Positions 4,557 through 61,175 of a stretch of DNA of 64,000 nucleotides are shown here, piece by piece. Position numbers and translations under genes: made by a program. The first letter of the stretch is position 1. Each line of letters opens with the position of its first letter. Source of the DNA: Vulcanimicrobiota bacterium (GTDB taxonomy: Bacteria > Vulcanimicrobiota > Xenobia > Xenobiales > QWHO01); assembly GCA_039809865.1 (NCBI GenBank), contig JBDHVW010000005.1:10671-74670 (forward strand), given 5' to 3'. The notes below the pieces were generated by a model that saw nothing but the letters and a program-made list of their open reading frames with translations, made no database searches and was not told where the DNA came from.

Positions 4557-4595
4557 CTTCAGCCCCTTTTCAGCGCCTGATCTTAAGCTCGAAGC

Positions 4596-38703: not shown

Positions 38704-41043
38704 TTATTCGACCAGGTCCCGCTCCACGGCCCATTCCCGAACCGTGGCGATCTCGGCGGCGGTCAACTCGGTGCCGCCCGCCATCAGGCGCCGGGCGTCG
38801 TCGCGGACATAACTCAGGCCCAGGTGTAGCCCCAACCCGGCCGCCAGGCACTGCGGCCCGGAGGCGGCCGGCAGCGACTGCGACACGACCAGCACCCGAC
38901 GGTGCGCGTAATAGACGCCCGGACGGCCCAACGCCGAGCGGACGAAAAAGACGTTGAGCGCCCCCGGCTCGAACTCGGGCAGCTGCGTCAGCGGAATGCC
39001 GTTGGGCACCTCGGGCGGAGGTGGGAGCGCGCGCGCCAGCACAGCGTCCTGCACGGCGGTGGGGGCGGCCCCCACGACCTCGAAAGCCAGCCCGGCCGGG
39101 GCGAAGAACTGATTGGCGTAGGCCACGCAGGCCTCGAAGAACGCGACCGGCTGGTCCACCCCCGCCTGCCGGTGTACGACCAGGTGCAGCCGCAGCGGAA
39201 TGCGCATCGGGGCCAGCGCGCACTCGGCGGGCGGAAGGTGCAGCATGAGCCTCTGCAGGCCCTGCACGCGCAGCGAGGCGCACTCGTCCGGGGTCAGCCG
39301 GGTGCCGCGGAAGCTGTTGCGGGCCAGGAGCCGCTCGGGCGGAGCATCGACGAAGCGGGCGCCCATCTGCGTGGCCAGCGTCAGCGCCAGGCACGAGCCG
39401 GCGCTGGGCACGGACTCGCTGACCAGGGTCACGCCCGGCGTCAGGTAAGCCACCCCCACCTGCAGACTGCCCGTCGCCCGGTTGCGGATCTCTTTGACGT
39501 AGAACAGGTTGTGAGCCATCGCATCGAACTCGGGCAGCAGGGTGAGGGGCGCGCCGTCGGGCGCGCTCGTGCCCGACGGCAGCACCTGCGAGAGCAGCGC
39601 GTCGCTGAGCCGGGTCTCGCTCCAAGATTGGATCTCGGCCTGGATGCCCGCCGGGGCCAGAATCGCGTTGGCGGAGCGCACGGCCTCCTCCAGCTCGCGC
39701 CTTGTGCGCGTGGCGCCGACCTCCGCGTGGCCCACGCGGTGGATGCGCAGCGGCAGGCGCAGCGTCCAGCGGTCGACGGGCTCGGGCGGGCCGAGCAGAC
39801 GCGCGGCGCGCTGGCGGGCCCAGCGCACGTCGTCCGGGCTCAGCTGGGTGCCCGGCTCGGGGAAGTTGGTCAACCGCTGCGGCGCGCCCTGGCTGGGAGC
39901 CAGCCCCAGGATCAGCCCCAGGCCCAGGGCCAGCCAGCGCTCGGATGCGTCGTGCGCCAGCAAGAGGATGCGCTCCGCCGGGTAGGCCACCATGGGCAGC
40001 GTGCGCACGGTGCCGCGCAGGGGCAGAAACGTGGCCCGGTAGAGGTTGATGCCCCGCGAATGATACCCCGCCGAGCGCCGGAGCGGACCGCAATCAGCCA
40101 GCGGAGCCTGGCTCTCGGGCTCGCGCGGGCAGGCGCGCTCGAGCGAGCCCGGCCCGGCCCCATAGCCGACCAGCTCGAACCCGATTCCGGCGGCTTTCCA
40201 CAACTCGTTGGCCCGGGTCAGGAGAGCCGCCAGCCCCTGCCCGCCGTCCAGCTCGACACCATACACCGGCAGGCGCAGCTCGGTGGCCGGGGGAGCGGGA
40301 GGGCTGGCGGCGCTGGCCGGAGAGCGAGGGTGCCAGGCCAGGAGGGGCGGCTCGAGGTCCCTGGGGCGCAGCTCCGGCGGCAGGGCGTCCAGGTCCGAGA
40401 CCATCGGACCGGCAGTCTCCGGCTCCACCACCGCCATCAAAGGGCGCTCGGGCAGGGCCGGGTCGTCGGGCCCGTGCGACTCGGAGAGTTTGGGCCCCGG
40501 CCTGAACTCGGCCCGCATGAGCCCGGCCAGCAGGCGCGAGTCGTCCAGCAACGCGGCCCGCGGCTCCTCTCTTGGAGGGGGCTCCGGACGGGCCTCGGGA
40601 GCGGTTTCCTGGGGCGTCAACCCGGCCAGGTCCAGCAGGCACCGGGCGATCAGCTCGACCTCGTTGCCGTCCAACTCGTCCGGCACCAGCGCCAGCTGCT
40701 GGAGCTTGTGCGGCACCAGCGCGTGATGAGGAGCGCCGCTCACCTGGCCGCCGATGGCCAGGATCTCGCTGGTGAAGAACAGGTTCATCGCCTGATGGTC
40801 GAACGCCGGCAGATTGGCCAGCCCCAAACCGTTGGGACGCCGCCGCGACGAGCGAATGCGCGGGTCGTTGGGGAACGCGTCATGCAGGGCCCCGATCGGC
40901 ACCGGGTCGTCGCGCACGCCGACGAGCTCGACCTCCAGGTTGGAGGGGAGATAGCGCCAGGTCGCCTTCAGCAGCGCCTCGACGTCCTCGGGCGCGCGGC
41001 TGGTGGCAGCCAGGTGAGCGACGACCGGAATCGTTACGGCCAC
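38704..41043 (-). CDS. hypothetical protein (779 aa) with four internal divergent repeats
   Basis: Natural composition, whereas the alternative frames 38699..40093 (-) and 38902..41823 (+) are R/G/A-rich. The repeated module is PxGxPLTxLPEFDxxAxNLF(F/Y)V (ANLPAFDHQAMNLFFTSE; LTLLPEFDAMAHNLFYVKE; LTQLPEFEPGALNVFFVRS; plus the degenerate INLYRATFLP). It lies 3 bp downstream of an acyl-CoA dehydrogenase gene. Confidence 0.6.
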   Translation of the reverse strand: MAVTIPVVAHLAATSRAPEDVEALLKATWRYLPSNLEVELVGVRDDPVPIGALHDAFPNDPRIRSSRRRPNGLGLANLPAFDHQAMNLFFTSEILAIGGQVSGAPHHALVPHKLQQLALVPDELDGNEVELIARCLLDLAGLTPQETAPEARPEPPPREEPRAALLDDSRLLAGLMRAEFRPGPKLSESHGPDDPALPERPLMAVVEPETAGPMVSDLDALPPELRPRDLEPPLLAWHPRSPASAASPPAPPATELRLPVYGVELDGGQGLAALLTRANELWKAAGIGFELVGYGAGPGSLERACPREPESQAPLADCGPLRRSAGYHSRGINLYRATFLPLRGTVRTLPMVAYPAERILLLAHDASERWLALGLGLILGLAPSQGAPQRLTNFPEPGTQLSPDDVRWARQRAARLLGPPEPVDRWTLRLPLRIHRVGHAEVGATRTRRELEEAVRSANAILAPAGIQAEIQSWSETRLSDALLSQVLPSGTSAPDGAPLTLLPEFDAMAHNLFYVKEIRNRATGSLQVGVAYLTPGVTLVSESVPSAGSCLALTLATQMGARFVDAPPERLLARNSFRGTRLTPDECASLRVQGLQRLMLHLPPAECALAPMRIPLRLHLVVHRQAGVDQPVAFFEACVAYANQFFAPAGLAFEVVGAAPTAVQDAVLARALPPPPEVPNGIPLTQLPEFEPGALNVFFVRSALGRPGVYYAHRRVLVVSQSLPAASGPQCLAAGLGLHLGLSYVRDDARRLMAGGTELTAAEIATVREWAVERDLVE

Positions 41044-43077: not shown

Positions 43078-43677
43078 TTAGAAGCCGGTCTTGGGATTGA
43101 CGTTCCACTGGATGTTGTTGAACTTGCGCTCTTCCGTCACCTTGGAGCCGTCGACTTTCTGCGAGTGCACGATCGTGCCATCGTCGGTCGCCCAGACCTT
43201 GCAGCCGTTCGAGAAGGTGAACAGCGTGGTGGCCTGGCCCTTGTAGCTGTCGCCGGCGCTGACCTTGGGGGCGCTGCTGCCACAGTCCTTGATGATCAGG
43301 CCGAAAACGCTCTGGTAGAGGGAGGTGCCGGCCACATCTTTGTGGTCCAGGCTGCGCTTGATCTGGCCGCTGCCGACGCGGGCGACGACCTGGTTGGCGT
43401 TCTCAGAGCTGTTGAAAACGGTGACCGCACCCACGCGATCCTGGCTGCCCGGCAGCACCTTCGTGCGGACCGACAGCGGGTTGTTGATGCAGGCATACTC
43501 GAAATTGTACTTGCCTTTGGGGCCGACATACTCATAGGTGCAGGAATAATCCTTGGCTCCGGCCACCTTGGCTTTGACGGCATCCCAGGTCGTTGCGGCC
43601 TGACTCGTCGAGGCGTTGAGCAGAATAGCGCTCAGGACCCCCATGGCCATAGCGACGAACTTCGTGCGGAATTTCAT
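43078..43677 (-). CDS. secreted hypothetical protein (199 aa, Lys-rich, beta-rich)
   Basis: Signal peptide (MKFRTKFVAMAMGVLSAILLNASTSQA) and its own AGGAG RBS. Last gene of the tatD / tubulin-like / cyclase operon, followed by a terminator. Confidence 0.65.
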   Translation of the reverse strand: MKFRTKFVAMAMGVLSAILLNASTSQAATTWDAVKAKVAGAKDYSCTYEYVGPKGKYNFEYACINNPLSVRTKVLPGSQDRVGAVTVFNSSENANQVVARVGSGQIKRSLDHKDVAGTSLYQSVFGLIIKDCGSSAPKVSAGDSYKGQATTLFTFSNGCKVWATDDGTIVHSQKVDGSKVTEERKFNNIQWNVNPKTGF

Positions 43678-43719: not shown

Positions 43720-45276
43720 CTACGACGCGTTCGTAGATCCTTCGAACGGGTCGACCACGAAGATCTTGACGTCGTACTCGGGCCAATACTCTTCGCGGGC
43801 GACCACCGGTCTAACCGGCAAGCGACCCAGAGTGTTTTCGGTCAGGCAAATTTCCCGGGCTCCCGCCCCTTTTTGCACTTTGCCGGCCACGTCCAGCGTG
43901 TAATCGTAGAGGTTGCGGGTTTGGGACGCGTCGCCCAGGTCGCGCGTGAGCACCTTGCCGCTGTTCACGCCGATGCGCACCTCCAGGCCCATCTCCAGGC
44001 GGTTGTGACGGCGGTTGAAGGCGCCCAGGTGGAGCTGGATCTCCCGACAGCATTCCACCGCATCCTGGGCCGAGTCGAAGACCGCCATGGTGCCATCCCC
44101 GGCCGCGTCCTTGACGTGGCCTTTGTGGCGCCGCACCAGGTTGCCCACATACTCGTGATACTGCTGGAACGTGTAGGTCACGTTGACTTTGTCCTGATTC
44201 TGCTTCAAGCGGGTGGAGTCGACCACGTCCAGGCAGACCGCGGTGCATTCGCGGCCCTCCGAAACGGGCGCCGACACGCTCTCGGGCGCACCCACCAGCT
44301 CTTTGTACATCGCGTTGCGGATGCGGCAATTGCCGTCCTTGTCGGCTTTGATCAGCCCGATCAACTCGAGGCGCGCCAGACGAGGATTGGTCATGCGGTT
44401 GAACTTGATCTTCTCGCCCACCAGCACGCGGTCGAGCCAGGGACGCAGCTCGGGCTCGCTCTCCAGGCGGTGCACCACGTGGTCGAGGTTGTTGCAGTCG
44501 CTCATAATCTCGCGCACGGCGCGCGCGACCACCTCGGGGCCGCCGACCGGAATGCGCCAGCCGGCCAGCACGGAGCAAAGGCGCTGGGTCAGGTAGGGCT
44601 GACCTTCCGTCCAGCGATAGATCTCGTCGGGAACGTCCTCGGCGGTGGCGATTCCCAGGCGCTCGAGCAGCGTCACCAGCTTGCGCACGCCGTCGCGCGT
44701 CAGGTCGGTCATGCGCAGGGTCTTGGAGACGTTGAAAGGCGAGTTGGCCTGGTTCTTGATCAGGTCGCGGGGCGAGAACGTGCCGCAGAGGACGAAGGAC
44801 ATCCTGGCAAACTCGGGCTTGACCTGGCGATTGGAGAACACGTAGCGCACGTTGCCGAAGAACGCGTCGGTAAACTCCTCGGGCACCGAGCCGACCTCGT
44901 CGAGCATCAACACGACCCGTCCCAGGGCGCCGCCCAGCGCGCGCAGGTAGTTCAAGAACTCGAGGTGCGTCGCGGGCATTTCCGAGGGGCCGCCAATTTG
45001 CTCATGGATCGTGGTGGCGATGTAGCGGTACCACGACGGTAGCGGCTCCTCGCGGGCGGCCGAGAGGTCCACATAGGCGATCGCGTAGCCCTGGGGCGCC
45101 AGCTTGTGGCGAACCCGGTAGAGAAGGCTCGTCTTGCCCATCTGGCGCGGGCCGATGACGGTGACGAAGTCGCCCGCCGCCAGGTGCTCGGGCAACTTCT
45201 CGTCCTCGATCCGATCGCAGTAGGCGGCCGAGTCCGGCCGCAGATTCCCGCCCCAGTGAAACAGGTCAGCCTCCAT
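43720..45276 (-). CDS. AAA-like ATPase fused to class III adenylyl/guanylyl (nucleotidyl) cyclase domain
   Basis: 518 aa. The N-terminal domain has Walker A GPRQMGKTSLL and Walker B VLMLDEVGS. The C-terminal ~180 aa carry CHD cyclase motifs (AVCLDVVDSTRL...HKGHVKDAAGDGTMAVF...RIGVNSGKV). AAGGAG RBS; the start overlaps the upstream giant gene stop by 11 nt. Confidence 0.75.
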   Translation of the reverse strand: MEADLFHWGGNLRPDSAAYCDRIEDEKLPEHLAAGDFVTVIGPRQMGKTSLLYRVRHKLAPQGYAIAYVDLSAAREEPLPSWYRYIATTIHEQIGGPSEMPATHLEFLNYLRALGGALGRVVLMLDEVGSVPEEFTDAFFGNVRYVFSNRQVKPEFARMSFVLCGTFSPRDLIKNQANSPFNVSKTLRMTDLTRDGVRKLVTLLERLGIATAEDVPDEIYRWTEGQPYLTQRLCSVLAGWRIPVGGPEVVARAVREIMSDCNNLDHVVHRLESEPELRPWLDRVLVGEKIKFNRMTNPRLARLELIGLIKADKDGNCRIRNAMYKELVGAPESVSAPVSEGRECTAVCLDVVDSTRLKQNQDKVNVTYTFQQYHEYVGNLVRRHKGHVKDAAGDGTMAVFDSAQDAVECCREIQLHLGAFNRRHNRLEMGLEVRIGVNSGKVLTRDLGDASQTRNLYDYTLDVAGKVQKGAGAREICLTENTLGRLPVRPVVAREEYWPEYDVKIFVVDPFEGSTNAS

Positions 45277-48200
45277 TCGCCATCATCTCCTTGTAGAGGT
45301 CCACGCCCTCGCGAACATCCATCACCTGGGCCACCATCTCGGGGAAGGAGCGCACCGCCAGGTGGTAGCGTGGACCATGCCGCTCGAGCAAGCCATAGAG
45401 ACAGAGGTTGTCCAGGGACTCCACCAGCTCGGGCAGGCTCAGCTTGACGTCGTAATCGGCCTCCAGGCGTTTTCGTAAATCCTGGGCGGTGATCTCCTCG
45501 TCCGTCTCGAGGGTCAGCGAGGCGATCCGCTCGCGCATCCCGCCCGATCCCCACAGCGTTTCCAGGTATTCCTCGGCGAAGAGCTGGTCGGTGAGCACCT
45601 CGCGCAAGAGGTCGGTGGAGATCTGACGCGTCCGCTCACGGTTGAGGCGATCGACCAGCACGCTGCAGGCCCGCTGCACCAGGTTGGGATGCCCGGCGGA
45701 AACGTAAAGCAGCATCTCCAGCGCCGCCTGGCGGTCGTCGAAGCGAACCTCCATCTGCTCTAAGGGCTCCGTGATCAGGTTCGTGGCCTCTTCGGCGCTC
45801 AAAAAGCCCAGTTTCATGGCGTGGCTGAAATTGAAAAACGCGGAGTCGGCCTGGTGCAGCTTATGGTGCAGGGTGCGCTCGCCACAAAGGAGGAAGCTGG
45901 CCTTCCCCTCGGTGGCGGCCTGGCGGAACGAGCGCCCCAAGAACTCGGAGTTTTGCGGGTCCTGCGCCAGCATCAGGTCGATCTCGTCGAGGATGATCAG
46001 GGCCTGGCGGCCCTCGTGGCGGTGCTGGAGCTCCATCAGGATGGCCGGAAAGCTCATCTTGGGCTCCCAGTTGGGGAGGTGCTCGGCCGCCAGCGTCATC
46101 AGGAAGTCCGAGCCTTTGGAGAGCGCCTGGCAGTCGAGATAGAAGACGGGCCGGTCCTGCTTGCGCAGGGAGCTCAGCACCCGCTGCAGCACCGAGGTCT
46201 TGCCTACCCGCCGGGGCCCCACCAGGGCCACGTTGCTGTGATCGAGCCGGTAGTGGATCTCCTTGATCACGCCCTCGCGCCCGTAGAACATCGAGGCGGG
46301 CACCGGTCCCTCCGTCACGAAGGGCGACACCACCGTGAGATCGACCTGCTCGAGCACGCGCCGCACCAGTTGGGACAGGCGGTTCTTCTCGCGCATGATG
46401 GCCTTGAGGTCGTCGGGGGTGAGCGCAATGATGTCGTAACGCAGCAAGCTGGACAGTCCCTCGGACAAAAGGGCGCGGTTGGCCTCTTTGTCGCCGGTCA
46501 CGAGCAGGAACCCGAACCGGTTGTCCTGGCCGACCTGCTCGAGCAAATTGCGCAGGTTGGCCACATCTTGCGGACCCATCAGGGGCCGCAGGCATGCCAG
46601 GAAGGGAATGGTGGAGGGGATGCGGATGCGGAGCCCGTGGGTCTCCACCAGCCGGCCCCAGATCGTCCCCAGGCCGAGGGGGCGCCCGGGCGTGAAACCG
46701 AGCGTCTGGCAGCAGAAGTCGATGATCTCGCCGGCCGCGCGGGCGAAGACGTCCGGATCCATCTCCTGGCTTTCCACCAGGCGCCGGATATCCGCGTCGA
46801 GGTGGGAGAGGTCGCGGGCCGAAACCAGCTCCAGGCGCCCGGCGCCGGGGTGGAAAGCCAGGTTCTCGCCCGGGTGCGTGAGCTCATAGCGCTGCATGGC
46901 CCAGCGGCGATAGCCGGCCGGGATCTGGACCAGGTCGGCCTCGGAGAGGCTGGGCGCGTGCTTGAGATAGCTCGCCAGCAAGGGCTCCCATTCCTGCCAG
47001 GATTGCTCGAGCTGCAGGCGCAGACGGCGCGCGGCCTGATGCAGCCAGGGCTCGAGGTCCACCCCCAGCAGCATGCGCCCGGACCCGGCCATCCTGTCCT
47101 CGCTGAGCTCGAGCTGCTTGAGATAGCCCTCCACTCCTAACTCGTCCAGTTTCTCCTCCTGCCAGCGCGCCAGCGAGATGAGCAGCGTGCTCTGGGTGAG
47201 CAGACCCTCCTCGATGTCGTGGAAGAGGTAGAGGCACGAGATGACCGGCGTCATGTCGGGCCAGCGCAGGCTCTCCAGCGTGTCGCCGGCCTCGAGGTGG
47301 CCGAGCCGGACGGCTGCGGCCAGCGTTTCCCAGACCCGCTCGCGCTCGTAGTCGGAGGGGCGCGACAGAGCTCGCCAGCGCACGTCGGTGCGCGAATGAG
47401 GAGCGACTTTGGCGCCTTTCAGCTCGTTGAGGTAGGACGAATGCAGCGGACCGAGCTCGAGAGCCCGCAGCGGAAAGCCCCCCGTGACGCGCAAGAAGAC
47501 CATGCGCTCGCGGGTCAAGAACGGCACCACGCTCAGGGTCAACTCTTGCTGCAGCAAGAACTCGGCCAGCTTCTGATGGCCGGGCGTCTCCTCGCCGGGC
47601 GCGGCGTGGACGGCGACGAAGGCCACCTCCTGGCCGTGGCCCCAGCCTTCCAGCTGCTGGCGCGGCTGCAGCGCCGGCCGGGCGCGCAGGAAGAGCTGCT
47701 TGAGCTGCTCTTCGGCGGCCGCGCCGCGATAGCGCTGGAAGAACTGATCCACCGCGTCGATCCCCTCCAGGCCCCCCAGGTGGCGCGCCACCGCGCCCAC
47801 CAGGGCCGAGACGGCCTCGCGAGGCTTGTAGCGCGCCGGCAGCTCGATGGGCTCCACGTTGAGCTCGTCGCGCACCCAGCGCGGCGCTTTCTCGATCTTC
47901 TTGTCGCTGGCCCGGTCGGCCAGAAAGTCGTTGACCTCGGTGCGGCTCAGCAGCACCTCGCCGGGCACCGAGAAGACCTGGCCCATCGCCTGGTTGTGCT
48001 GGTCGTGGAAGAGCTTGCCCAGCGTGGTCAGGTATTCGAACAGGGTAGTGGTGTCCGAGCGGAACCTTTCGACCAGCAGCAGCAGCTCCTGAAAGGCGTT
48101 CCAGGCCTCGCGGTGGATGTGAAGCACGAGCCGGCTGGAGTAGAACCGCTCGATCAGCTCCAGGGCCGGGGGGGTGGTCGACAGGCCTTTCTTCTTCTTG

Positions 48201-49675
48201 AAGACGCTCTTGCTGGCCGCCGCCGTCTCGAGCTGGCGCAGCGTCTGATCCTTCTCCTGCAGCAGGCGCAGCTCGTCGAGCTCGAGCTGGGACATCTCCT
48301 CGTAGAGCGTGCGCAGGCGGTCGCCCACCGCGTCGGAGAGCTGCTCGAGGTAAGCGGCGTAGCCCAGAGTGCGCTCGGCCCGAAAAAAGGCGTTGACTTC
48401 GTCGGTGAGGGCGGCCGTGCCACGGGCCGCCAGCTCGGCCGCACGGGCGGAGACCTTGCCGAACAGCCCGTCGGGTTTGTTCTCTCCCAGAGCGCGCAGG
48501 ATGGCCTCTTCCAGCACCCGCAGTTTGGCGGCCAGCGCGGCGCCCTGAGGCGGCTTTCGCTCGAGCTGCTCGCGCACGGCGGTCACCTCGCGGTCGTGGC
48601 GGAAGGCGGTCGGGCCGCCGGCCGCGTTGGTCAGCTCCTCCACGAACACGTGACGGGCCAGGGCTTCGCGATGCAAGAACTCCAGCGCCACTTTGGGCGT
48701 CTTGTCGGGCTCCTCGGCACCCCGCGTAATGGCGGCCTGCCAGCGCTCGGTCAGCTGGTTGAGAATGCGTGAGGCCAGCGCGGTGCGGATCTCGTCGAAG
48801 GGCAGCGAAAGCGAGGACGACGCCTGGCTGAAGTAGGTCACCGGGTTGCCCCGCTCGTCGACCTGGTGGGAAAACGCGTTCTGGCGGCGCGCGACCTCGG
48901 TGGCCAGGGGCCGGTAGGGCTCCCACAGCGGCAATCCCAGGTAGGCGGTGACCTGGAGGCCAAGAGCCTCGCGCTCGTGGGCGTCCTCGAGGTCGCGGCA
49001 GCTGAACATCACCACCCGGTCGTACGGGGCCTGGTCGGTCTCAAACGTCAATCCGCCGGGAATGCTGATGCTGTAGGTCGTGTCGGGGGCCTGCCAGTGG
49101 TTGAGCTCGATCAGCGCGGCATAGGGATTCGAGGCCCCGCGTTCGTGGCGCGCGGGCCGGGCCGAGCTGACCAGCACGGCTTCCACGACGGCCTCGGAGC
49201 CGGGCCGCAGCTGCTCGATCAGACCGCGCAACAAGAAGGGCAGCTCGCACAGCAGCACGCCGCCCGTGCCGCCGGCCAGGGAGCCGACCAGCGTGACGTG
49301 CACGGCCCCGTCCTCCAGCACCTCCGTCAGCAACGGATTGAGCCAGGCCGCCAGCACGCTGTAGTTGGTCAGGAAGACGAGTCGCCCCAGCATGCGGATG
49401 GCGCCGCAGCCCGAGCGACGCAGCTCGGGGCGGACCCCCGGCGGAACCAGGCGCTCCCAGATACCGGCGTCCAGGAGCAGCTTCTCGGACGGCTGCAGGT
49501 TGAGCTGGTGGCTCAGAATTTGCTTGCCCGCCAGCATGCTCAGGCTGGCCTTGTCGCTGTCGATGGCGGCGCACACCATGCGGGAGGCGGCCAGCCGGCC
49601 CGACAGCACGTCGCAGGCCTGCCCTACCAGGGCGGTGCCCAGGCCACCCAGACCGAGAATGAGGTGACCGCTCAC
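45266..49675 (-). CDS. giant multidomain protein: N-terminal FtsZ/tubulin-like GTPase domain, long helical middle region, C-terminal AAA-like ATPase
   Basis: 1469 aa. The N-terminus has ILGLGGLGTALV (G-box 1), AIDSDKASL (compare FtsZ AVNTDAQAL) and SLAGGTGGV (compare the tubulin/FtsZ GGGTGSG T4 loop). The C-terminus has Walker A VGPRRVGKTSVL and Walker B ALIILDEIDLM, paralogous to the ATPase of the downstream cyclase gene. ATGA overlap with upstream tatD. Confidence 0.75.
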   Translation of the reverse strand: MSGHLILGLGGLGTALVGQACDVLSGRLAASRMVCAAIDSDKASLSMLAGKQILSHQLNLQPSEKLLLDAGIWERLVPPGVRPELRRSGCGAIRMLGRLVFLTNYSVLAAWLNPLLTEVLEDGAVHVTLVGSLAGGTGGVLLCELPFLLRGLIEQLRPGSEAVVEAVLVSSARPARHERGASNPYAALIELNHWQAPDTTYSISIPGGLTFETDQAPYDRVVMFSCRDLEDAHEREALGLQVTAYLGLPLWEPYRPLATEVARRQNAFSHQVDERGNPVTYFSQASSSLSLPFDEIRTALASRILNQLTERWQAAITRGAEEPDKTPKVALEFLHREALARHVFVEELTNAAGGPTAFRHDREVTAVREQLERKPPQGAALAAKLRVLEEAILRALGENKPDGLFGKVSARAAELAARGTAALTDEVNAFFRAERTLGYAAYLEQLSDAVGDRLRTLYEEMSQLELDELRLLQEKDQTLRQLETAAASKSVFKKKKGLSTTPPALELIERFYSSRLVLHIHREAWNAFQELLLLVERFRSDTTTLFEYLTTLGKLFHDQHNQAMGQVFSVPGEVLLSRTEVNDFLADRASDKKIEKAPRWVRDELNVEPIELPARYKPREAVSALVGAVARHLGGLEGIDAVDQFFQRYRGAAAEEQLKQLFLRARPALQPRQQLEGWGHGQEVAFVAVHAAPGEETPGHQKLAEFLLQQELTLSVVPFLTRERMVFLRVTGGFPLRALELGPLHSSYLNELKGAKVAPHSRTDVRWRALSRPSDYERERVWETLAAAVRLGHLEAGDTLESLRWPDMTPVISCLYLFHDIEEGLLTQSTLLISLARWQEEKLDELGVEGYLKQLELSEDRMAGSGRMLLGVDLEPWLHQAARRLRLQLEQSWQEWEPLLASYLKHAPSLSEADLVQIPAGYRRWAMQRYELTHPGENLAFHPGAGRLELVSARDLSHLDADIRRLVESQEMDPDVFARAAGEIIDFCCQTLGFTPGRPLGLGTIWGRLVETHGLRIRIPSTIPFLACLRPLMGPQDVANLRNLLEQVGQDNRFGFLLVTGDKEANRALLSEGLSSLLRYDIIALTPDDLKAIMREKNRLSQLVRRVLEQVDLTVVSPFVTEGPVPASMFYGREGVIKEIHYRLDHSNVALVGPRRVGKTSVLQRVLSSLRKQDRPVFYLDCQALSKGSDFLMTLAAEHLPNWEPKMSFPAILMELQHRHEGRQALIILDEIDLMLAQDPQNSEFLGRSFRQAATEGKASFLLCGERTLHHKLHQADSAFFNFSHAMKLGFLSAEEATNLITEPLEQMEVRFDDRQAALEMLLYVSAGHPNLVQRACSVLVDRLNRERTRQISTDLLREVLTDQLFAEEYLETLWGSGGMRERIASLTLETDEEITAQDLRKRLEADYDVKLSLPELVESLDNLCLYGLLERHGPRYHLAVRSFPEMVAQVMDVREGVDLYKEMMANGG

Positions 49676-50433
49676 AACGGGCCGAAGAGGGAGGCGGCGG
49701 CGGCGCTGGTGGCGCGGGCCACTTCTTCAGGGTCGAGCCCGCGCAGCTCGGCGACCTTGCGCGCCATCAGGGGCACGTAACCCGGCTCGTTGCGCTTGCC
49801 TCGGTAAGGAATCGGGGCGAGGTAGGGGCCGTCGGTCTCGAGCAGCAGGCGGTCGAGAGGGGCCTGCCGCGCCACTTCGTGCACTTCGTGCAGCTTGGGA
49901 AAGGTGACCATGCCGGTGACGCCCACGTAAAAACCGAGCTGCAGGAATTTCTGGGCCCAGTCCCAGCCGCCCGTGAAGCAATGGACCACGCCCCGAACCC
50001 CGCCCTGACGGCACTCTTCGTAGAGCGCCTCCTCGGCCTCGCGGCAGTGCAGGATTACGGGTTTGTCCACCTTTCGGGCCAGCTCGAATTGCTGGCGCAG
50101 GCAGCGGAACTGCTCCTCGGGCGTGGCGAAATCGTAGTGGAAGTCGAGCCCGATCTCGCCGATCGCGACGGCCTTGCCGGCCAGCTGCTCGAGCTCGGTC
50201 AGGCAGTCGGAGCTCCAGGCCTTCGCCTCGTGGGGGTGCACGCCCACGGCCGCCCGGATGCGGTCGTCGCGCTCGCTCATTCGCACGATCTGGCGCGCCG
50301 AATCCATTTGCGTGGCCGGGGCGATGACGCGTTCCACCCCCGCTTGCGTGGCGCGATCGAGCACGGCCTCCCAATCGGCCGAATAGGCCTCGGCATCCAG
50401 GTGAATATGGGTGTCGACCAGCACGGTCAGCAT
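49672..50433 (-). CDS. tatD: TatD family metal-dependent hydrolase/DNase
   Basis: About 253 aa from MLTVLVDTHIHLD. TatD motifs are present (VGVHPHEA; AIGEIGLD; ILHCREA; VHCFTGG; LLETDGPYL). Its stop overlaps the start of the giant gene. Confidence 0.85.
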   Translation of the reverse strand: MLTVLVDTHIHLDAEAYSADWEAVLDRATQAGVERVIAPATQMDSARQIVRMSERDDRIRAAVGVHPHEAKAWSSDCLTELEQLAGKAVAIGEIGLDFHYDFATPEEQFRCLRQQFELARKVDKPVILHCREAEEALYEECRQGGVRGVVHCFTGGWDWAQKFLQLGFYVGVTGMVTFPKLHEVHEVARQAPLDRLLLETDGPYLAPIPYRGKRNEPGYVPLMARKVAELRGLDPEEVARATSAAAASLFGPL

Positions 50434-50572
50434 GCTTCGGGTGTCTGCGAAGTTTTGCCTTTCCGGACGCCCCCGCCAGCCTCCCACACACCTGTTCGGA
50501 AGGTGCGAAGGAAATTCTTCAAGTCGGGAAGAATTTTCCTCGTCTGACGACTGGGAAAGGAGGAGGGATGTC

Positions 50573-50848
50573 ATGGGTCGGGCGGCTCGCGAGCATAGCT
50601 CGGCAGAACCGGTACGCCGTTTGCGGCGCAGCGTCGAGGGTTTCGAGAAGAAGACCCGGGCGGCGACTCCGCAGCGGTCCAAGACCCGTTCGGCCCGAGC
50701 CAAATCACGTCCCTCGAAGTCCCGAGCGTTGCCCTGGCGCCTTCTCCTGGTGCTGGGGCTGATCCTGATGGTGGGCTCCACCGTCTGGACGATCGTCCAC
50801 TCGCCAACGAAACGCCCCCCCTTATCCCATAGCAAATCGTCCCGTTAG
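50573..50848 (+). CDS. putative small basic protein with C-terminal transmembrane anchor
   Basis: 91-aa ORF (MGRAAREHSS...ALPWRLLLVLGLILMVGSTVWTIVHS...) preceded by a strong AAGGAGG RBS 9 nt upstream. Intergenic location between tatD and the amidase; unverified. Confidence 0.35.
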   Translation: MGRAAREHSSAEPVRRLRRSVEGFEKKTRAATPQRSKTRSARAKSRPSKSRALPWRLLLVLGLILMVGSTVWTIVHSPTKRPPLSHSKSSR

Positions 50849-57287: not shown

Positions 57288-58358
57288 TCAGGGCGCTTCC
57301 CGAAAGCGAATGGCCAGCACCACCACGTCGTCGTCCTGCTGCCCGCCCGTCAGCTTGAAAAGGCGGTCGGTCAGCTCGCTGACGGGGCGCGAGCACTCGG
57401 CCAGCAGCGTCTTCTTCACCGGCTCCTCGCCCAGGCGGCCGGCCCCCGGGACCGGAGCGTTCGTCAGCCCGTCGGTATAGCACAGGAACACGTCACCCGG
57501 GGACACCTCGAAGGAGTCTTCCGTCAGTGCCAGCTCGGGCGCCACTCCCAGGGGCAGGCCCTGGCCCACCACCTCGGTCAACTCGCCGTTGCGGCAGAGG
57601 TAGGCCGGCTCGTGACCCGCATTACAGCAGGTCAGGCGCCCGGAGGGCCCGTCGTACTGGGCCGCCAGGCAGGTCACGAACATCGAGTCGGGCAGAAACG
57701 GCCCCAGGCGCTCCTGAACCATTGTCAGCAGGTGGGCAGGGCCCGTGCAGCGCGGCATGGTCTCCTCGAAGAGACCGCGCAGCACGCTCACGACCAGGGC
57801 GGCCGATGGGCCTTTGCCGGAAACATCGGCCAGCACGAGCGCGGTGCCGTTGCTCATGTTGCGCACGTCGAAGAAGTCGCCTCCCAGCGCGAACGCCACC
57901 TCGAAGCGCACCGAGCCTTCGACCCAGCGCAGTCCGCTCAGGTCCGAGCGCAGCAGGGCCAGCTGCACTCCCCGCGCGTCCGTCAAGGCCTGCTCGAGAC
58001 GCTGCTGCGTCTCGTGCAGCTGGGCCCGGCTTTCCTCGACCTGTTGCAGGTAGGCGCGTTGAGCCGCCGCGCCCATCCCCAGCACCACCCACTGCACCAC
58101 GGTCAGCGCGTCGTTGGAAAGATACAGTAAATCCTCGCGCAGCGAGGGCTCCTTGATGAACGTGGCGCCCAGATCCACGAGGGTGCACATGGCGGTGGTC
58201 CACATGACGCCCGGAATGCCGCCCGTCCAACCGCCGGCCAGGATGACCAGGGCGTAGCAGAGGGAGAGGTTGATATTGAGCCCGATTTGGTAATCGACCA
58301 GACCGATCAGCAGCGTGACCAGAACGAGGGCCAGCCGGATCAGCCGTTCGCGGCTCAC
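57288..58358 (-). CDS. PP2C-family serine phosphatase (SpoIIE/RsbU-like) with N-terminal membrane segments
   Basis: 356 aa. The N-terminal 2-3 TM helices precede a PP2C domain (FALGGDFFDV...ALVLADVSGKG...CNAGHEPAYL...YTDGLTN). ATGA overlap with the upstream coiled-coil gene. Confidence 0.8.
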   Translation of the reverse strand: MSRERLIRLALVLVTLLIGLVDYQIGLNINLSLCYALVILAGGWTGGIPGVMWTTAMCTLVDLGATFIKEPSLREDLLYLSNDALTVVQWVVLGMGAAAQRAYLQQVEESRAQLHETQQRLEQALTDARGVQLALLRSDLSGLRWVEGSVRFEVAFALGGDFFDVRNMSNGTALVLADVSGKGPSAALVVSVLRGLFEETMPRCTGPAHLLTMVQERLGPFLPDSMFVTCLAAQYDGPSGRLTCCNAGHEPAYLCRNGELTEVVGQGLPLGVAPELALTEDSFEVSPGDVFLCYTDGLTNAPVPGAGRLGEEPVKKTLLAECSRPVSELTDRLFKLTGGQQDDDVVVLAIRFREAP

Positions 58359-61009
58359 TCGATGGGAAGCTCGAGGACCTCGCGCATGATCTTCATTCGC
58401 TCGGCCAGGTTGGGCCGATCGCGGAACTGCTCGGCCAGCTTCGTGAGCATCTGCGGGTCGCAGCTACGCAACTTCTCGCGCAGCGTCACCAGCCGGGCGA
58501 AGACGAGGTTGATCTCGGACTGCACGCTGTCGAGGGTCTCGCGCGCTTCCACCGAGCTGGCCAGGGCGTGCAACCGCTCGCGCGTCATTTCCTCGACGTC
58601 TTCCTCGCGTTGCCGCAGCTTGTCGCGCAGGTTCTCGTTCCGGTCTTGCTGGGCCCGGAGCTGCTCTTTGAGGCCCCGCTCGGCATCCGATAGCGACCAG
58701 CCCTTCTGCACGGCCTCCTGCATCTCGGCCCGAGAAATGGCCAGCTGGGTCTCGAGCTCGGTCCGCTGGCTGTCGAGGCGGTCCACCAGCTCCTGAAGCC
58801 TGGCCAGCTGGCTGTCCTTGTCGGACAACTTCTGAGCCAGCTCTCCGCTTTTGCTGAGGGCCTCCTGCCGCACTTTCTCTTGCTCGGCGTCCCGGGCCAC
58901 CAGCTCGTCCTTGTCGTGGGCCACCGTGGTGCGGAGCTTGAGCACCTCCGACTCGAGCCTCTCGCCAGCGCTATACGCCTCGAGCAGCTTGAGGCGGTTC
59001 GCGGCCAGCTCCGCTTCGAGATGGGAGACCTTCTGGCGCGTCTTGAGCAGGTCGGCCTTGACCGTGGCTTCGGGCAGCTTGGACAGGTCGTCCGCCAGCG
59101 CCGTCTCGAGGTCCTCGGCCAGTGTCTCGGCGGCTTTGGCGCGCGAGCGCTCCTCCACGACATCCGACTCGAGCTGGCGCACGCGCCTGATCAGGCCTTC
59201 GGGGTCTTGCACCGAGTCGACCAGCTTCTGCAGGCCTTCCACCAGTTTGCGGGTTTTCTCGAGCTCCTCGCGGGCCTTGATCAGCTGGCGCTCTTGCTCG
59301 GGATCCTTCTTGGGCGCCTTCTCTAACTCGGCGACCCGCTCGGTGAGCTCCTTGACGCGCTTCTTCTCGGCGATGGCGTCGCCCGAATGCTGGCGGTTCT
59401 CTTCCTCGAGCTCGGCGTAGGCGGCTTCCAGGTCGGCGCGCTCTTGTTGGAGGTCGGCGTACATCCTCTCCTTAGACTCCAACTCGCCCTGGATCGTTTC
59501 CAGGGTGGCGGTCATGCTCTGAATTTCATCTTCCAGGGCGATCCGGGCCTCGGCGTCCGCCGCAGCCTCAGCGCGAGTCTTGGCCAGCTCGGCCTCCAGG
59601 CCGGCCAGTTTTTCGCCCAGCTCGCGCCGGATGGATTCGCGGGCCGCCTCGAGCTCGCTGACCGCGGAGCTCTTCTCCTCGAGCCTGGCCAGATCGTCAT
59701 TGCGGACGAGCATCACCTCGCGGTGGGCCTGGCGCTCGGCGGTCAGGTCGGCATCCAGATCGGCGACCCGCTGCTCGAGCTGCGCGATGCGCTCGTTGGC
59801 GAACACCAGCCGCGCCTCGCGCTCTTTCAGCTCGGCCTGCCGATGCGACAGATCCTGCTGCAGATGGCGCAGCTGGGCCTCGCCGCGGTTGATGATGCCT
59901 TCGAGGTTCTGAGTGCGGGCCCGCTGCTCGGCCAGGGCGCCGGCCGAGCTGTTGGAGCTCTCCTCGAGTGAGACGGAGCGCTCGCGCAGGAAGCTCAGCT
60001 CGCGGTCGGCCTCGGCCAGCAACTGTCCCAGCTCGCGTGCCCGCTCCGACTGCGACAGCGTCGCCTGCTGGAGCTTTTCGCTCTGGGCCAGGCGGCGCTC
60101 CAGTTCGGACACGTTGCTGTGGGACCGGCCCAGCTCGCCCTGCAGGTCGCCCAGCTTGCGTTGCAGCTCGTCGCGCTCGACTTTGAGCTTGGCCGCCTCG
60201 GTGCGGGTGCGCTCGAAGTCCGCCGTGAGGCGCTTGGGCTCTTCCAGCGCCCCGGCCAGCTCGGCCTCGAGCTTGCCGATGCGGCCCATCGCCTGCTCCA
60301 AACGCACGCTGACGCGACCCTCCTGGGCGCGGGCCTCGGATAAGCGGGCCGTCAGGCGCGACACTTCCTCGCGGGCCTCCTGCCCCATCGCCTCGAGCGC
60401 GGTGGGCTCGGCGACCGCCAGCTGCCCCTTCTCTTCCTCCAGCTCCTCGATGCGTTTCTGGCGGCTCTCCAGCTCGGCGCTGAGCACCTGCTCGGCCTCG
60501 CGGGCGTGCTGGAGCTTCTTCTCCAGGTCTTCGAGCCGGGCCAGCCGCGCTCGGGCCTCCTCCAGCTCGGTCTGCCCGCCCTGGAGCACCTCCAGTTGAG
60601 CTTTCAGAGCTTTGGATTCTTTGTCACGCTTGGCCAGCCGGGCCTTGACGTCGGCCAGCTCGGTCTGGCTGGCCTCCAGCTCGCTCTTGCGTTTCTCGAG
60701 CTCCTCGAGCAGCTCGGGCGAGCCCGCTCCGCCGCCCCCGGCCTCGAGCTTGGCCTGCAACGCCTTGAGCTTCTTGCCACGGGCTTTGAGCTGGTCGTTG
60801 AGCTCTTTATTCTGCTGCTCGAGCTTGAGATTGTGCTCGTCGAGCTCGTCGACCTGGTCCTCGAGCTCGTCGATCTTGTCCTGATTGGCTTCGAGCTGAT
60901 CCTCGAGCTCCTCGATGCGGTCCTCGGCCGCTTCCAACGCCTTCTTCAGCTTGGAGTCAAGGTCGACCGATTTTACGGCAGGGGCGGCTGTCGCCTTCTT
61001 AGTAGCCAT
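58355..61009 (-). CDS. large coiled-coil protein (884 aa)
   Basis: Almost entirely heptad-type E/L/R/K/A/Q-rich sequence with no globular catalytic motif; translationally coupled to the PP2C gene. Confidence 0.75.
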   Translation of the reverse strand: MATKKATAAPAVKSVDLDSKLKKALEAAEDRIEELEDQLEANQDKIDELEDQVDELDEHNLKLEQQNKELNDQLKARGKKLKALQAKLEAGGGGAGSPELLEELEKRKSELEASQTELADVKARLAKRDKESKALKAQLEVLQGGQTELEEARARLARLEDLEKKLQHAREAEQVLSAELESRQKRIEELEEEKGQLAVAEPTALEAMGQEAREEVSRLTARLSEARAQEGRVSVRLEQAMGRIGKLEAELAGALEEPKRLTADFERTRTEAAKLKVERDELQRKLGDLQGELGRSHSNVSELERRLAQSEKLQQATLSQSERARELGQLLAEADRELSFLRERSVSLEESSNSSAGALAEQRARTQNLEGIINRGEAQLRHLQQDLSHRQAELKEREARLVFANERIAQLEQRVADLDADLTAERQAHREVMLVRNDDLARLEEKSSAVSELEAARESIRRELGEKLAGLEAELAKTRAEAAADAEARIALEDEIQSMTATLETIQGELESKERMYADLQQERADLEAAYAELEEENRQHSGDAIAEKKRVKELTERVAELEKAPKKDPEQERQLIKAREELEKTRKLVEGLQKLVDSVQDPEGLIRRVRQLESDVVEERSRAKAAETLAEDLETALADDLSKLPEATVKADLLKTRQKVSHLEAELAANRLKLLEAYSAGERLESEVLKLRTTVAHDKDELVARDAEQEKVRQEALSKSGELAQKLSDKDSQLARLQELVDRLDSQRTELETQLAISRAEMQEAVQKGWSLSDAERGLKEQLRAQQDRNENLRDKLRQREEDVEEMTRERLHALASSVEARETLDSVQSEINLVFARLVTLREKLRSCDPQMLTKLAEQFRDRPNLAERMKIMREVLELPIE

Positions 61010-61175
61010 CTGTCCGCCAGCGGGAGAGTGGGGCTGGCGTTATGCCGAGGTAGCAATATAACACGATCCTGGAGGCGGTTCTCGAGCGAATTTCGAAAAA
61101 GATTCGACTTCTTTCGACCCTGTCCTTTCGGAGCATTCGAGGAATCGCGAAGGCCGCGCGAGAAGGCGCGAAGCC

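What the first reader, a model, noticed from the sequence alone, without database searches (positions are those of the whole stretch)
43720..45276. AAA-like ATPase fused to a class III (CHD) nucleotidyl cyclase, paralogous to the ATPase of the giant upstream gene
The N-terminal ATPase is 40-45% similar in its motif blocks to the C-terminal ATPase of the 1469-aa protein (FVTVIGPRQMGKTSLLYRV / VALVGPRRVGKTSVLQRVL; VVLMLDEVGSV / ALIILDEIDLM). That suggests the two assemble into a common NTPase module. The cyclase domain retains the metal-binding Asp pair context (CLDVVDSTRL ... GDGTMAVF) and the substrate-specifying region around RIGVNSGKV. In CHD cyclases the residues in that region decide purine versus pyrimidine specificity.
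Basis: partly seen in the sequence, partly recalled or inferred. Interest (0 to 1): 0.7.

Follow-up and report, generated by a model that had tools for sequence, protein, structure and literature searches.

The report
Paired ATPase switch driving a cyclase
This gene encodes a P-loop ATPase fused to a divergent nucleotide cyclase, and it is the output half of a widespread two-gene "paired ATPase" module that I did not find described in the papers I checked; here the input half is a giant tubulin-like protein, so a cytoskeleton-like scaffold may be wired to second-messenger synthesis.

Summary
ORF 43720-45276(-) encodes 518 aa: AAA_35 ATPase (E 3e-22) plus a class III cyclase domain (E 1e-12; fold match to Ma1120, TM 0.8-0.87). 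It overlaps by 11 nt the 1469-aa upstream gene, which is an FtsZl1-type tubulin-like domain, a helical middle, an endonuclease-fold domain and a STAND/Arch-ATPase-like ATPase. The two ATPases are true homologues (BLASTP E 3e-10; hhalign 98.6%, 229 columns, 25% identity).

New here:
- An "A-type" ATPase gene is followed at once by a "B-type" ATPase-output gene in about 70 of 72 informative metagenome loci. Outputs are mostly PP2C, also GAF-kinase, TIR, CHAT and wHTH. Cyclase output and tubulin-like input occur only in this lineage (Candidatus Xenobia, Eremiobacterota).
- The metal-binding Asp pair is kept, but the canonical Asn/Arg pair is Asp462/Lys466. This is invariant in the family and shared, as Asp + His/Lys, by all 148 nearest cyclase domains. 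It is a distinct conserved subclade, not decay.

No cNMP-binding effector lies next to it. The locus is syntenic and vertically inherited in a core chromosome. One sub-lineage lost the cyclase gene cleanly. So this is not Pycsar. The product nucleotide cannot be read from the sequence. Best reading: a nucleotide-switch hetero-oligomer that dimerises the cyclase domains.

The parts
43720..45276 (-). Gene for the 518-aa B-type ATPase-cyclase fusion (the finding).
   Evidence: ORF; Pfam AAA_35 + Guanylate_cyc; 16 orthologues at 55-81% identity.
44302..45249 (-). B-type P-loop ATPase module (AAA_35, residues 10-325). Motifs: Walker A GPRQMGKTS, Walker B MLDEVG, FVLCGT strand, GxP motif GQPYLTQR, then a helical/winged-helix-like tail.
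   Evidence: Pfam E 2.8e-22; near-invariant motifs in alignment A1; hhalign to the giant protein's ATPase at 98.6%.
43753..44250 (-). Class III (CHD) cyclase domain, residues about 343-508. Metal-binding Asp residues are D350 and D394; also R434. Asp462 and Lys466 occupy the canonical Asn and Arg positions. D390 occupies the purine-specifying Lys/Glu position.
   Evidence: Pfam E 9.6e-13; PDB profile alignments; AF2 pLDDT 85-94 and Foldseek TM 0.8-0.87; residue census of the 148 nearest relatives.
45266..45276 (-). 11-nt overlap (ATGGAGGCTGA) between the stop of the giant gene and the start of the cyclase gene, with AAGGAG about 10 nt upstream. This indicates translational coupling.
   Evidence: Sequence read. 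The same 11-nt overlap appears in L001, L005, L011 and L020.
45266..49675 (-). Gene for the 1469-aa partner: tubulin-like domain, helical middle, endonuclease-fold domain and A-type ATPase.
   Evidence: ORF; Pfam Tubulin_2 E 2.9e-19 and AAA_22 E 8.5e-12; orthologue alignment A2.
48746..49675 (-). FtsZl1-type tubulin/FtsZ-like GTPase domain (residues 1-310). T1-like loop GLGGLG; T4-like loop SLAGGTG with invariant G135, G136 and T137.
   Evidence: Pfam PF13809, 70 bits against a cut-off of 27; invariant columns in A2; family definition from PMC2875224.
46814..48745 (-). Fast-evolving, mostly helical middle region (residues 311-954), with no Pfam match. FtsZl1 proteins typically have a coiled coil followed by an alpha-helical domain in this position.
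   Evidence: No significant Pfam hit; 19-41% identity to distant orthologues against 46-56% for the C-terminal module; FtsZl1 architecture from PMC2875224. Coiled coil was not tested directly.
46391..46813 (-). Pre-ATPase alpha-beta-beta-beta-alpha-beta domain with a restriction-endonuclease-like fold (residues about 955-1095). No conserved (D/E)xK motif, so probably not catalytic. It is part of the conserved A module.
45266..46291 (-). A-type ATPase with a winged-helix tail (residues 1129-1469). Motifs: FYGRE, Walker A GPRRVGKTS, Walker B ILDEID, FLLCGE, GxP motif GHPNLVQR.
49672..50454 (-). TatD-family hydrolase gene directly upstream. Its stop overlaps the giant gene's start by 4 nt. The true start is uncertain: the ORF as listed runs to 50835, but orthologues are 252-269 aa.
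   Evidence: Pfam TatD_DNase E 1.7e-79; the same adjacency in L011, L018, L020 and L022. It is absent next to the pair in L001 and L005, so it may be only a syntenic neighbour.
43078..43677 (-). 199-aa secreted protein with a signal peptide and no Pfam match. It lies 42 nt downstream of the cyclase gene, has its own AGGAG, and no terminator was detected in between.
   Evidence: ORF; no Pfam/PADLOC/NCBIfam hit; spacer read; conserved downstream in L020 (82%), L018/L022 (62%, loci without the cyclase) and L005 (38%).

Best explanation
The 518-aa protein is the output subunit of a two-gene paired P-loop switch. The upstream 1469-aa protein carries the input: an FtsZl1-type tubulin-like GTPase, a long helical region and an endonuclease-fold domain. 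It ends in an A-type STAND/Arch-ATPase-like NTPase. The 518-aa protein starts with a homologous but distinct B-type (AAA_35) NTPase and ends in a class III cyclase domain. The two genes are translationally coupled.

The proposed mechanism is as follows. The A and B NTPase modules co-assemble in a nucleotide-dependent way. Because class III cyclases form their active sites only across a head-to-tail dimer, this assembly brings the B-linked cyclase domains together and switches on synthesis of a cyclic nucleotide. The state of the tubulin-like scaffold would thereby be reported as a second messenger. The cyclase belongs to a large, conserved subclade in which the transition-state pair is Asp + Lys/His instead of Asn + Arg. 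It is therefore probably active, but its substrate and product are unknown.

Shown here: domain identities, homology of the two ATPases, the recurrent A-then-B gene pairing, retention of the metal-binding Asp pair, the conserved Asp/Lys variant, and vertical inheritance. Inferred: the physical A-B complex, activation by induced dimerisation, catalytic activity, and the biological signal.
For: - Domains: for the B protein; for the A module.
- Homology of the ATPases: BLASTP E 3e-10; hhalign 98.6%.
- Coupling: the 11-nt overlap with a Shine-Dalgarno sequence is conserved in all orthologous loci.
- Pairing: of 80 metagenome loci with an A-type ATPase, 69 have a B-type ATPase gene directly downstream, mostly overlapping by 4-23 nt. 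Of the other 11, 8 have under 300 nt of downstream sequence and 1 is a scoring tie. Only the two Xenobia loci that lost the cyclase truly lack B.
- Outputs on B vary: PP2C in 29 of 46, GAF plus HATPase_c, TIR, CHAT, EAD8, PAS, and the cyclase once. A wHTH (Trans_reg_C) output is seen in L008 and L010.
- Inputs on A vary: caspase-PEGA, GAF, glycosyltransferase, BNR/sortilin, TIR, NACHT-HEAT, and tubulin-like only here.
- Within the giant protein, the A module is the best conserved part (46-56% identity against 19-33% for the tubulin/helical part), and the B-cyclase protein is 55-67% identical across the class.
- D350 and D394 are invariant. D462 and K466 are invariant in the family, and Asp + His/Lys is found in 148 of 148 nearest cyclase domains.
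- That class III cyclases need a dimer for activity is established knowledge for the family; the PycC structures described in PMC11224242 are consistent with it.
Against: - No experiment or co-fold shows an A-B complex.
- In L018, L019 and L022 the giant gene persists with no cyclase gene, leaving only an 89-nt spacer. The A protein can therefore exist without this B partner.
- The Asn-to-Asp and Arg-to-Lys changes could lower or alter catalysis, and no member of this subclade is known to me to have been assayed.
- No cNMP receptor was found in the 64-kb window. phmmer with E. coli CRP found nothing. Only a distant stand-alone GAF protein at 1479-2216 was seen.
- The ATPase half of the AF2 model of the B protein is only moderately confident: whole-protein pLDDT 71.7, pTM 0.38.
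Confidence: 0.5

Rival explanations
1. The pair is an anti-phage or biological-conflict system, either Pycsar-like or of the NTP-dependent 'tubulin/STAND/cyclase' kind described by Kaur et al. The giant protein would sense infection, and the cyclase would make a nucleotide alarm that activates a toxic effector encoded elsewhere.
For: STAND-type NTPases, tubulin homologues and cNMP cyclases are recurrent parts of predicted conflict systems (PMC7159879; PMC8195603). Other A/B pairs carry caspase, TIR, CHAT and EAD8 domains. PADLOC PycC profiles hit the cyclase domain weakly (E 9e-10), and they hit its nearest relatives slightly better than generic Pfam does (best E 7e-19 against 4e-14).
Against: No gene with a cNMP-binding domain and no toxic effector lies next to the pair. 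The locus sits in a core chromosome (RecA, MscL, NDH2, acyl-CoA dehydrogenase, AMIN-amidase). It is syntenic across the class, and identities fall in step with the flanking housekeeping genes. The family is confined to one class, Xenobia/UBP9. There was no match in 2.9 million viral contigs. The most common output of the module is a PP2C phosphatase, which is a signalling domain rather than a toxic one. The PycC hits cover only residues 344-447, and no solved PycC appears among the PDB matches.
Confidence: 0.2
2. The cyclase domain is catalytically dead and serves only as a nucleotide-binding or dimerisation module, as proposed for some cyclase domains fused to vWA components.
For: The canonical transition-state Asn and Arg are replaced by Asp462 and Lys466. 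The purine-specifying Lys/Glu position is Asp390, and the second specificity position is variable. Kaur et al. note inactive cNMP cyclase domains in related contexts.
Against: Both metal-binding Asp residues, R434, and the Asp/Lys pair itself are invariant over orthologues of 55-81% identity. All 148 nearest relatives, which have diverse architectures, keep both metal-binding Asp residues and the Asp462 equivalent, and 133 have His or Lys at 466. That pattern indicates selection on an active site, not decay. Lys and His can supply the positive charge that Arg normally provides (inference).
Confidence: 0.15
3. The two ATPases act independently, and their adjacency reflects only an old tandem duplication. 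The 518-aa protein would then be a self-contained STAND-regulated cyclase, like the mycobacterial cyclase-ATPase-HTH proteins.
For: One sub-lineage keeps the giant gene without the cyclase gene. More distant AAA_35 proteins (26-31% identity) are not preceded by an A-type gene. STAND proteins normally homo-oligomerise (established knowledge).
Against: The A-then-B order with overlapping stop and start codons is kept in about 70 of 72 informative loci, across unrelated input and output domains and down to 24-30% identity. That is hard to explain without a functional link.
Confidence: 0.1

Closest known systems
Class III (CHD) adenylyl/guanylyl cyclases, e.g. Ma1120, CyaC, Rv1900c, Cya2
   Same: Same fold (Foldseek TM 0.72-0.87). 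It has the two metal-binding Asp residues and the conserved Arg of the RIG strand, and the helix that normally carries the Asn/Arg pair is present at residues 459-470 of the model.
   Different: Asp462 and Lys466 replace Asn and Arg. Asp390 replaces the Lys (adenylyl cyclase) or Glu (guanylyl cyclase) specificity residue. The Phe two residues before the first metal-binding Asp, present in Ma1120, is Cys or Ser here. The domain belongs to a subclade of at least 148 50%-identity clusters that all share Asp + His/Lys; I know of no characterised member.
Pycsar (PycC pyrimidine cyclase plus a cNMP-binding effector)
   Same: A CHD-fold cyclase in a small operon, with weak matches to PycC profiles.
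   Different: There is no adjacent effector with a cNMP-binding domain. The residues reported to select pyrimidines in PycC (EaPycC F100/R142/Q144; AnPycC F60/K104/F109; PMC11224242) correspond by offset from the metal-binding Asp residues to Cys348, Asp390/Ala392 and Met397 here, so they are not matched. The locus is not in a defence island, is vertically inherited, and no solved PycC is among the PDB matches.
FtsZl1 / Pfam Tubulin_2 proteins (Makarova and Koonin 2010), and the GAP1-N2 GTPase-centric systems with tubulin homologues (Kaur et al. 2020)
   Same: The giant partner has the FtsZl1 N-terminal tubulin-like domain with the GTP-binding loops, followed by a long helical region.
   Different: None of the usual partner genes (vWA, GAP1/TRAFAC GTPase, OmpA, protein kinase, HSP70, FNIII) are in the locus. 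Instead, the protein is fused at its C-terminus to an endonuclease-fold domain and a STAND-like ATPase, and it is paired with an ATPase-cyclase. That architecture is not mentioned in the passages I read of PMC2875224 and PMC7159879.
STAND / Arch_ATPase (PF01637) / ORC-Cdc6-like NTPases, including nSTAND1 and the two-gene nSTAND2 system of Kaur et al. 2021
   Different: This is a different pair of subfamilies (AAA_22/nSTAND1-like A and AAA_35/ATPase_2-like B). The order is fixed, the input sits on A and the output on B, and the dominant output is PP2C. I found no description of this A/B module in the papers searched.
Mycobacterial multidomain cyclases Rv0386, Rv1358 and Rv2488c (cyclase-ATPase-HTH)
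   Same: A class III cyclase is linked in one polypeptide to a STAND-type ATPase. This is from my own knowledge; the search listing shows that papers naming these proteins exist, but no paper text confirming the architecture could be read.
   Different: The domain order is reversed: there the cyclase is N-terminal, here it is C-terminal. The ATPase subfamily differs (AAA_16/NB-ARC-like against AAA_35). Those proteins have no paired second ATPase gene and no LuxR HTH is present here.

Membership tests
Class III (CHD) nucleotidyl cyclase | CHD catalytic fold and a Pfam PF00211 match above the gathering score | tested here: met
   48.6 bits against a cut-off of 21.9; Foldseek TM 0.8-0.87 to Ma1120.
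Class III (CHD) nucleotidyl cyclase | Two metal-binding aspartates | tested here: met
   D350 and D394 are invariant in 16 orthologues and in 149 of 149 aligned relatives.
Class III (CHD) nucleotidyl cyclase | Transition-state-stabilising Asn and Arg on helix alpha-4 | tested here: not met
   The alignment to Cya2 (2w01) puts D462 on the Asn position and K466 on the Arg position. Both are invariant in the family. This is a conserved variant, not a random loss.
Class III (CHD) nucleotidyl cyclase | Purine-specifying pair (Lys/Asp for ATP, Glu/Cys or Glu/Gly for GTP) | tested here: not met
   D390 aligns with Lys of Ma1120 and Glu of Cya2. The second position, about N455, varies among N, G, S, Q and D.
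Class III (CHD) nucleotidyl cyclase | Dimer-dependent cyclase activity | not testable with these tools
   Needs an enzyme assay or a multimer model.
Pycsar | Cyclase belongs to a PycC clade | tested here: inconclusive
   The best PADLOC PycC hit is E 8.9e-10 and covers only residues 344-447. No solved PycC appears among the PDB sequence or fold matches.
Pycsar | Adjacent effector with a cNMP-binding domain fused to TM helices or TIR | tested here: not met
   The neighbours are the tubulin-like giant protein, TatD and a 199-aa secreted protein with no Pfam match. No CRP-like ORF was found in the window.
Pycsar | Patchy, horizontally spread distribution and a defence-island context | tested here: not met
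   The locus is syntenic with AMIN-amidase, BacA and TatD across one class, with identities that co-vary with the flanks. The window is core chromosome. No viral contig hits.
AAA_35 / STAND-like P-loop NTPase (B module) | Pfam PF14516 above the gathering score, with Walker A and B motifs | tested here: met
   79.4 bits against 27; GKTS and LDE motifs are near-invariant.
AAA_35 / STAND-like P-loop NTPase (B module) | GxP motif and helical/winged-helix extension typical of STAND NTPases | tested here: met
   GQPYLTQR aligns with GHPNLVQR of the A module. The A module's model matches Arch-ATPase, NLR and CED-4 structures. For B itself the AF2 model is only moderately confident.
FtsZl1 / Tubulin_2 (partner protein) | Pfam PF13809 above the gathering score, with T1 and T4 GTP-binding loops | tested here: met
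   70 bits against 27; GLGGLG and (A/G)GGTG are conserved in all 9 aligned orthologues.
FtsZl1 / Tubulin_2 (partner protein) | Operon with vWA, GTPase, OmpA or protein-kinase genes | tested here: not met
   None in the window locus or in L001-L022.
FtsZl1 / Tubulin_2 (partner protein) | Coiled coil after the GTPase domain | not tested
   No coiled-coil predictor was run. The region has no Pfam hit.
A/B paired ATPase module (defined here) | A-type ATPase gene immediately followed on the same strand by a B-type ATPase gene | tested here: met
   The window pair overlaps by 11 nt. 69 of 80 metagenome loci show the pairing, about 70 of 72 with enough downstream sequence.

The most novel reading that the evidence does not exclude
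The A/B paired-ATPase cassette is a widespread modular signal-transduction device that I did not find described in the literature I searched. Any input domain can sit on A and any output on B. In Xenobia it would couple the assembly state of a tubulin-like (FtsZl1) cytoskeletal protein to synthesis of a second messenger by an Asp/Lys-type CHD cyclase. The altered catalytic and specificity residues could mean a non-canonical nucleotide product.
Probability: 0.25. Interest if true: 0.75.

Novelty: new variant of a known kind. Interest (0 to 1): 0.55.

Why it matters
Three points could be tested directly.

1. FtsZl1 tubulin homologues have no known function. Here one is fused to, and genetically paired with, a nucleotide-switch/cyclase output. 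That gives a concrete read-out (a cyclic nucleotide) for whatever the tubulin-like scaffold does.

2. The A-then-B ATPase gene pair appears in hundreds of metagenome loci with interchangeable inputs and outputs (PP2C, kinase, TIR, CHAT, wHTH, cyclase). If the two ATPases form a hetero-oligomeric switch, this is a general signalling architecture comparable in logic to STAND/NLR proteins but split over two genes.

3. The cyclase belongs to a large CHD subclade with Asp + His/Lys in place of Asn + Arg. I know of no biochemical work on this subclade, and its product could differ from cAMP or cGMP.

Tried and rejected
- **Pycsar/PycC membership.** Rejected, because there is no cNMP-binding effector, PycC profile hits are only partial and weak, and no PycC is among the PDB matches.
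The relevant positions (D390, about N455, C348, A392, M397) match neither adenylyl cyclase, guanylyl cyclase nor the published PycC determinants, so no call can be made.
- **Degenerate cyclase.** Considered because of the Asn-to-Asp and Arg-to-Lys changes. Judged unlikely after the census of 148 relatives.
- **Defence island or mobile element.** The window proved to be core chromosome. The viral-contig scan was negative. A mobile element with an integrase sits downstream in only one variant contig (L003).
- **GAP1-N2/vWA tubulin systems and EACC1 systems.** Their components are absent here.
- **Whole-protein Foldseek of the 518-aa model.** It returned only cyclase matches, so it said nothing about the ATPase half.
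- **Sequence search of the giant family against PDB.** It found only Cdc6/ORC-type ATPases and no tubulin or FtsZ.
- **Literature searches for AAA_35/PF14516.** They returned only unrelated papers.
- **PMC2447327 on mycobacterial cyclases.** The held text did not contain the body, so the comparison with Rv0386-type proteins rests on my own knowledge.
- **Promoter and terminator scan.** It gave nothing above shuffled expectation.
- **More distant AAA_35 proteins (P0019, P0022).** They are not preceded by an A-type gene, so the pairing is not a property of all AAA_35 proteins.
Full report
**1. Observation**

The ORF at 43720..45276 (minus strand) is real and encodes 518 aa.
- Pfam finds AAA_35 over residues 10-325 (E 2.8e-22) and Guanylate_cyc over 343-486 (E 9.6e-13), both above the curated cut-offs.
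- The family profile aligns with solved class III cyclases: Ma1120 E 3e-12, Cya2 E 5e-11, CyaB, and mammalian AC.
- An AF2 model built on 16 orthologues has pLDDT 85-94 in the cyclase domain. That domain superposes on Ma1120, CyaC, Rv1900c and Cya2 with target-normalised TM 0.72-0.87.
- The upstream ORF 45266..49675 (minus strand, 1469 aa) overlaps by 11 nt (ATGGAGGCTGA) and has an AAGGAG Shine-Dalgarno sequence just upstream.
- Pfam shows an N-terminal Tubulin_2 domain (E 2.9e-19) and a C-terminal P-loop ATPase: AAA_22 E 8.5e-12, with weaker AAA_35, NACHT and nSTAND hits.

**2. Are the two ATPases related beyond chance?**

Yes.
- BLASTP gives 25% identity and 44% positives over 238 residues, E 3e-10.
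- hhalign of the two family alignments gives probability 98.6%, E 8.8e-16, over 229 columns.
- The aligned region runs from the (F/Y)xxRE motif through Walker A, Walker B and the LCG strand to the GxP motif (GQPYLTQR / GHPNLVQR).
- No third copy and no second cyclase are present in the window.
- The two are not nearest paralogues. The cyclase protein's ATPase is a clear AAA_35 member (79 bits), while the giant protein's ATPase scores best on AAA_22/nSTAND1-type models. I call them B-type and A-type.

**3. The cyclase active site**

- In 16 orthologues (55-81% identity), D350 (LDVVDST) and D394 (GDG) are invariant, as is R434.
- The alignment to the guanylyl cyclase Cya2 places invariant D462 on the canonical Asn and invariant K466 on the canonical Arg. 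D390 falls on the Lys (adenylyl cyclase) / Glu (guanylyl cyclase) specificity position. The second specificity position, about N455, is variable.
- I searched 1.84 billion representative proteins with the cyclase domain alone. Only 2 clusters score at E <= 1e-30, and both belong to the family itself. There are 410 clusters at E <= 1e-10 and 4941 at E <= 1e-3.
- The 148 best non-family hits all have Asp at the position of D462. They have His (119) or Lys (14) at the position of K466, and both metal-binding Asp residues in every case.
- The Asn/Arg replacement is therefore the signature of a large, conserved CHD subclade, not decay.
- Those relatives mostly carry the cyclase at the C-terminus of regions with no Pfam match. 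A few have Response_reg, CHASE2, caspase or nSTAND1 domains. Only this family has the AAA_35 fusion.
- PycC profiles hit this subclade only modestly (best E 7e-19). The residues reported to select pyrimidines in PycC structures (PMC11224242) have no counterpart here. The product cannot be predicted.

**4. Distribution and context**

- The fusion protein has only about 16 clusters among 5.8 billion proteins. The labels are Candidatus Xenobium/Xenobia, Eremiobacterota, UBP9 and Armatimonadetes, plus some likely mis-binned names.
- In every locus with the cyclase gene it follows the giant gene with the same 11-nt overlap.
- The flanks are partly syntenic: AMIN-Amidase_3, BacA, TatD (whose stop overlaps the giant gene's start by 4 nt), and a 199-203-aa secreted protein downstream.
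- Identities of the giant gene, the cyclase gene and the flanking genes fall together from locus to locus.
- The window itself is core chromosome, with RecA, MscL, NDH2, acyl-CoA dehydrogenase and others.
- In L018, L019 and L022 the giant gene (61% identical) is followed after 89 nt by the 203-aa gene, with no cyclase gene. This is a clean loss in one sub-lineage.
- No relative was found in viral contigs.
- No CRP-like receptor is present in the window.
- Together these points argue against a Pycsar-type or other mobile defence system.

**5. The pairing is general**

- tblastn showed that the giant protein's residues 893-1469 also match the C-terminus of NACHT-HEAT giant proteins in L008 and L010. 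Those genes are followed by AAA_35-Trans_reg_C and AAA_35 genes that are 37-38% identical to the B module.
- A short 500-aa A-type protein in L023 is followed, with a 4-nt overlap, by a B-type-PP2C protein.
- A metagenome scan with the A-module alignment found 293 relatives.
- In the best 80 loci, 69 have a gene immediately downstream whose N-terminal ~330 residues score higher on the B profile than on the A profile. Most overlap by 4-23 nt.
- Of the 11 exceptions, 8 have under 300 nt of downstream sequence and 1 is a scoring tie. The remaining 2 are the Xenobia loci that lost the cyclase.
- B outputs in 46 complete proteins: SpoIIE/PP2C 29, GAF plus HATPase_c 5, TIR 2, EAD8 2, CHAT 1, PAS 1, cyclase 1.
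- N-terminal inputs on long A proteins: caspase-PEGA, GAF, glycosyltransferase, BNR/sortilin and TIR. The tubulin-like input occurs only in Xenobia.
- More distant AAA_35 proteins are not preceded by an A-type gene.
- Within the giant family, the A module is the best conserved part (46-56% identity against 19-33% for the tubulin and helical parts).

**6. Interpretation**

The finding is the output half of a two-gene paired-ATPase switch.
- What the data show: domain identities, homology of the ATPases, the fixed A-then-B order with overlapping stop and start codons (which I read as translational coupling), variable inputs and outputs, a conserved but non-canonical cyclase active site, and vertical inheritance.
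- What is inferred: A and B co-assemble in a nucleotide-dependent way; assembly dimerises the cyclase domains, as class III cyclases need; a cyclic nucleotide is produced; and the signal originates in the FtsZl1-type tubulin-like/helical part.
- FtsZl1 proteins were proposed to act in membrane remodelling (PMC2875224). They were later reinterpreted as parts of conflict systems (PMC7159879). Neither proposal has been tested.
- The neighbouring envelope genes (AmiC-like amidase, BacA, a secreted 199-aa protein) fit a cell-envelope or cell-biology role, but that is only synteny.

**7. Comparison and novelty**

- Each domain belongs to a known superfamily, and STAND-linked cyclases exist.
- Three things look new: the fixed A/B gene pair as a module, the fusion of FtsZl1 to a STAND-like ATPase, and the pairing with an Asp/Lys-type CHD cyclase.
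- I found no description of these in the papers I could search. That library is incomplete, so prior description cannot be excluded.
- I rate it a new variant of a known kind, of moderate interest.

Noticed in passing
window 43078-43677 (-): A 199-aa protein with a signal peptide and no Pfam, PADLOC or NCBIfam match. It lies 42 nt downstream of the cyclase gene. It is conserved downstream of the giant gene even in lineages that lost the cyclase gene (62% identity in L018/L022, 82% in L020, 38% in L005). It may belong to the same operon.
   Followed up: partly
L018:10749-10838, L019, L022 (also L031, L032): In one Xenobia sub-lineage the cyclase gene is cleanly absent. The giant gene is followed after 89 nt by the 203-aa secreted-protein gene.
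   Followed up: yes
[not shown]
   Followed up: partly
P0057-P0204 (cyclase-domain relatives): A large subclade of CHD cyclase domains carries Asp + His/Lys in place of the canonical Asn + Arg, with the shared motifs FN..(H)N.L and (I/L)D.A(G/A)(H/K).QK. Most sit at the C-terminus of regions with no Pfam match.
   Followed up: partly
L008:3912-11293 and L010:4199-11356: NACHT-HEAT giant proteins end in the same A module. They are followed by AAA_35-Trans_reg_C and AAA_35-only genes. Further AAA_35 or ORC-like wHTH genes lie nearby, and a CHAP-ricin lectin gene is adjacent.
   Followed up: partly
L043-L108 (e.g. L055:1081-4904): The commonest form of the module in metagenomes is a 500-aa A protein followed by a ~775-aa B-PP2C (SpoIIE) protein, with the two genes overlapping by 4 or 14 nt.
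   Followed up: partly
L003:12326-21349: In one contig otherwise identical to L001, a block with a tyrosine integrase, a resolvase and small ORFs replaces the genes downstream of the Rieske gene. This looks like a mobile-element insertion next to the pair.
   Followed up: no
L025:1491-5980: The giant gene appears split into 834-aa and 608-aa ORFs separated by 158 nt, on a low-coverage contig (coverage about 0.7). This could be a frameshift or assembly error, or a genuine split.
   Followed up: no
window 49672-50835 (-): The TatD ORF as listed has a ~139-aa N-terminal extension not seen in orthologues (252-269 aa), so the listed start is probably too far upstream. Its stop overlaps the giant gene's start by 4 nt.
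   Followed up: partly
window 38704-41043 (-), 58355-61039 (-), 4587-7022 (+), 26020-28311 (+): Four long ORFs (763-894 aa) with high third-position GC, consistent with real coding regions, have no Pfam match.
   Followed up: no
window 1479-2216 (-) and 57288-58463 (-): A stand-alone GAF-domain protein and a SpoIIE/PP2C phosphatase are encoded in the window. These are possible signalling partners but lie far from the pair and have no evidence of linkage.
   Followed up: no
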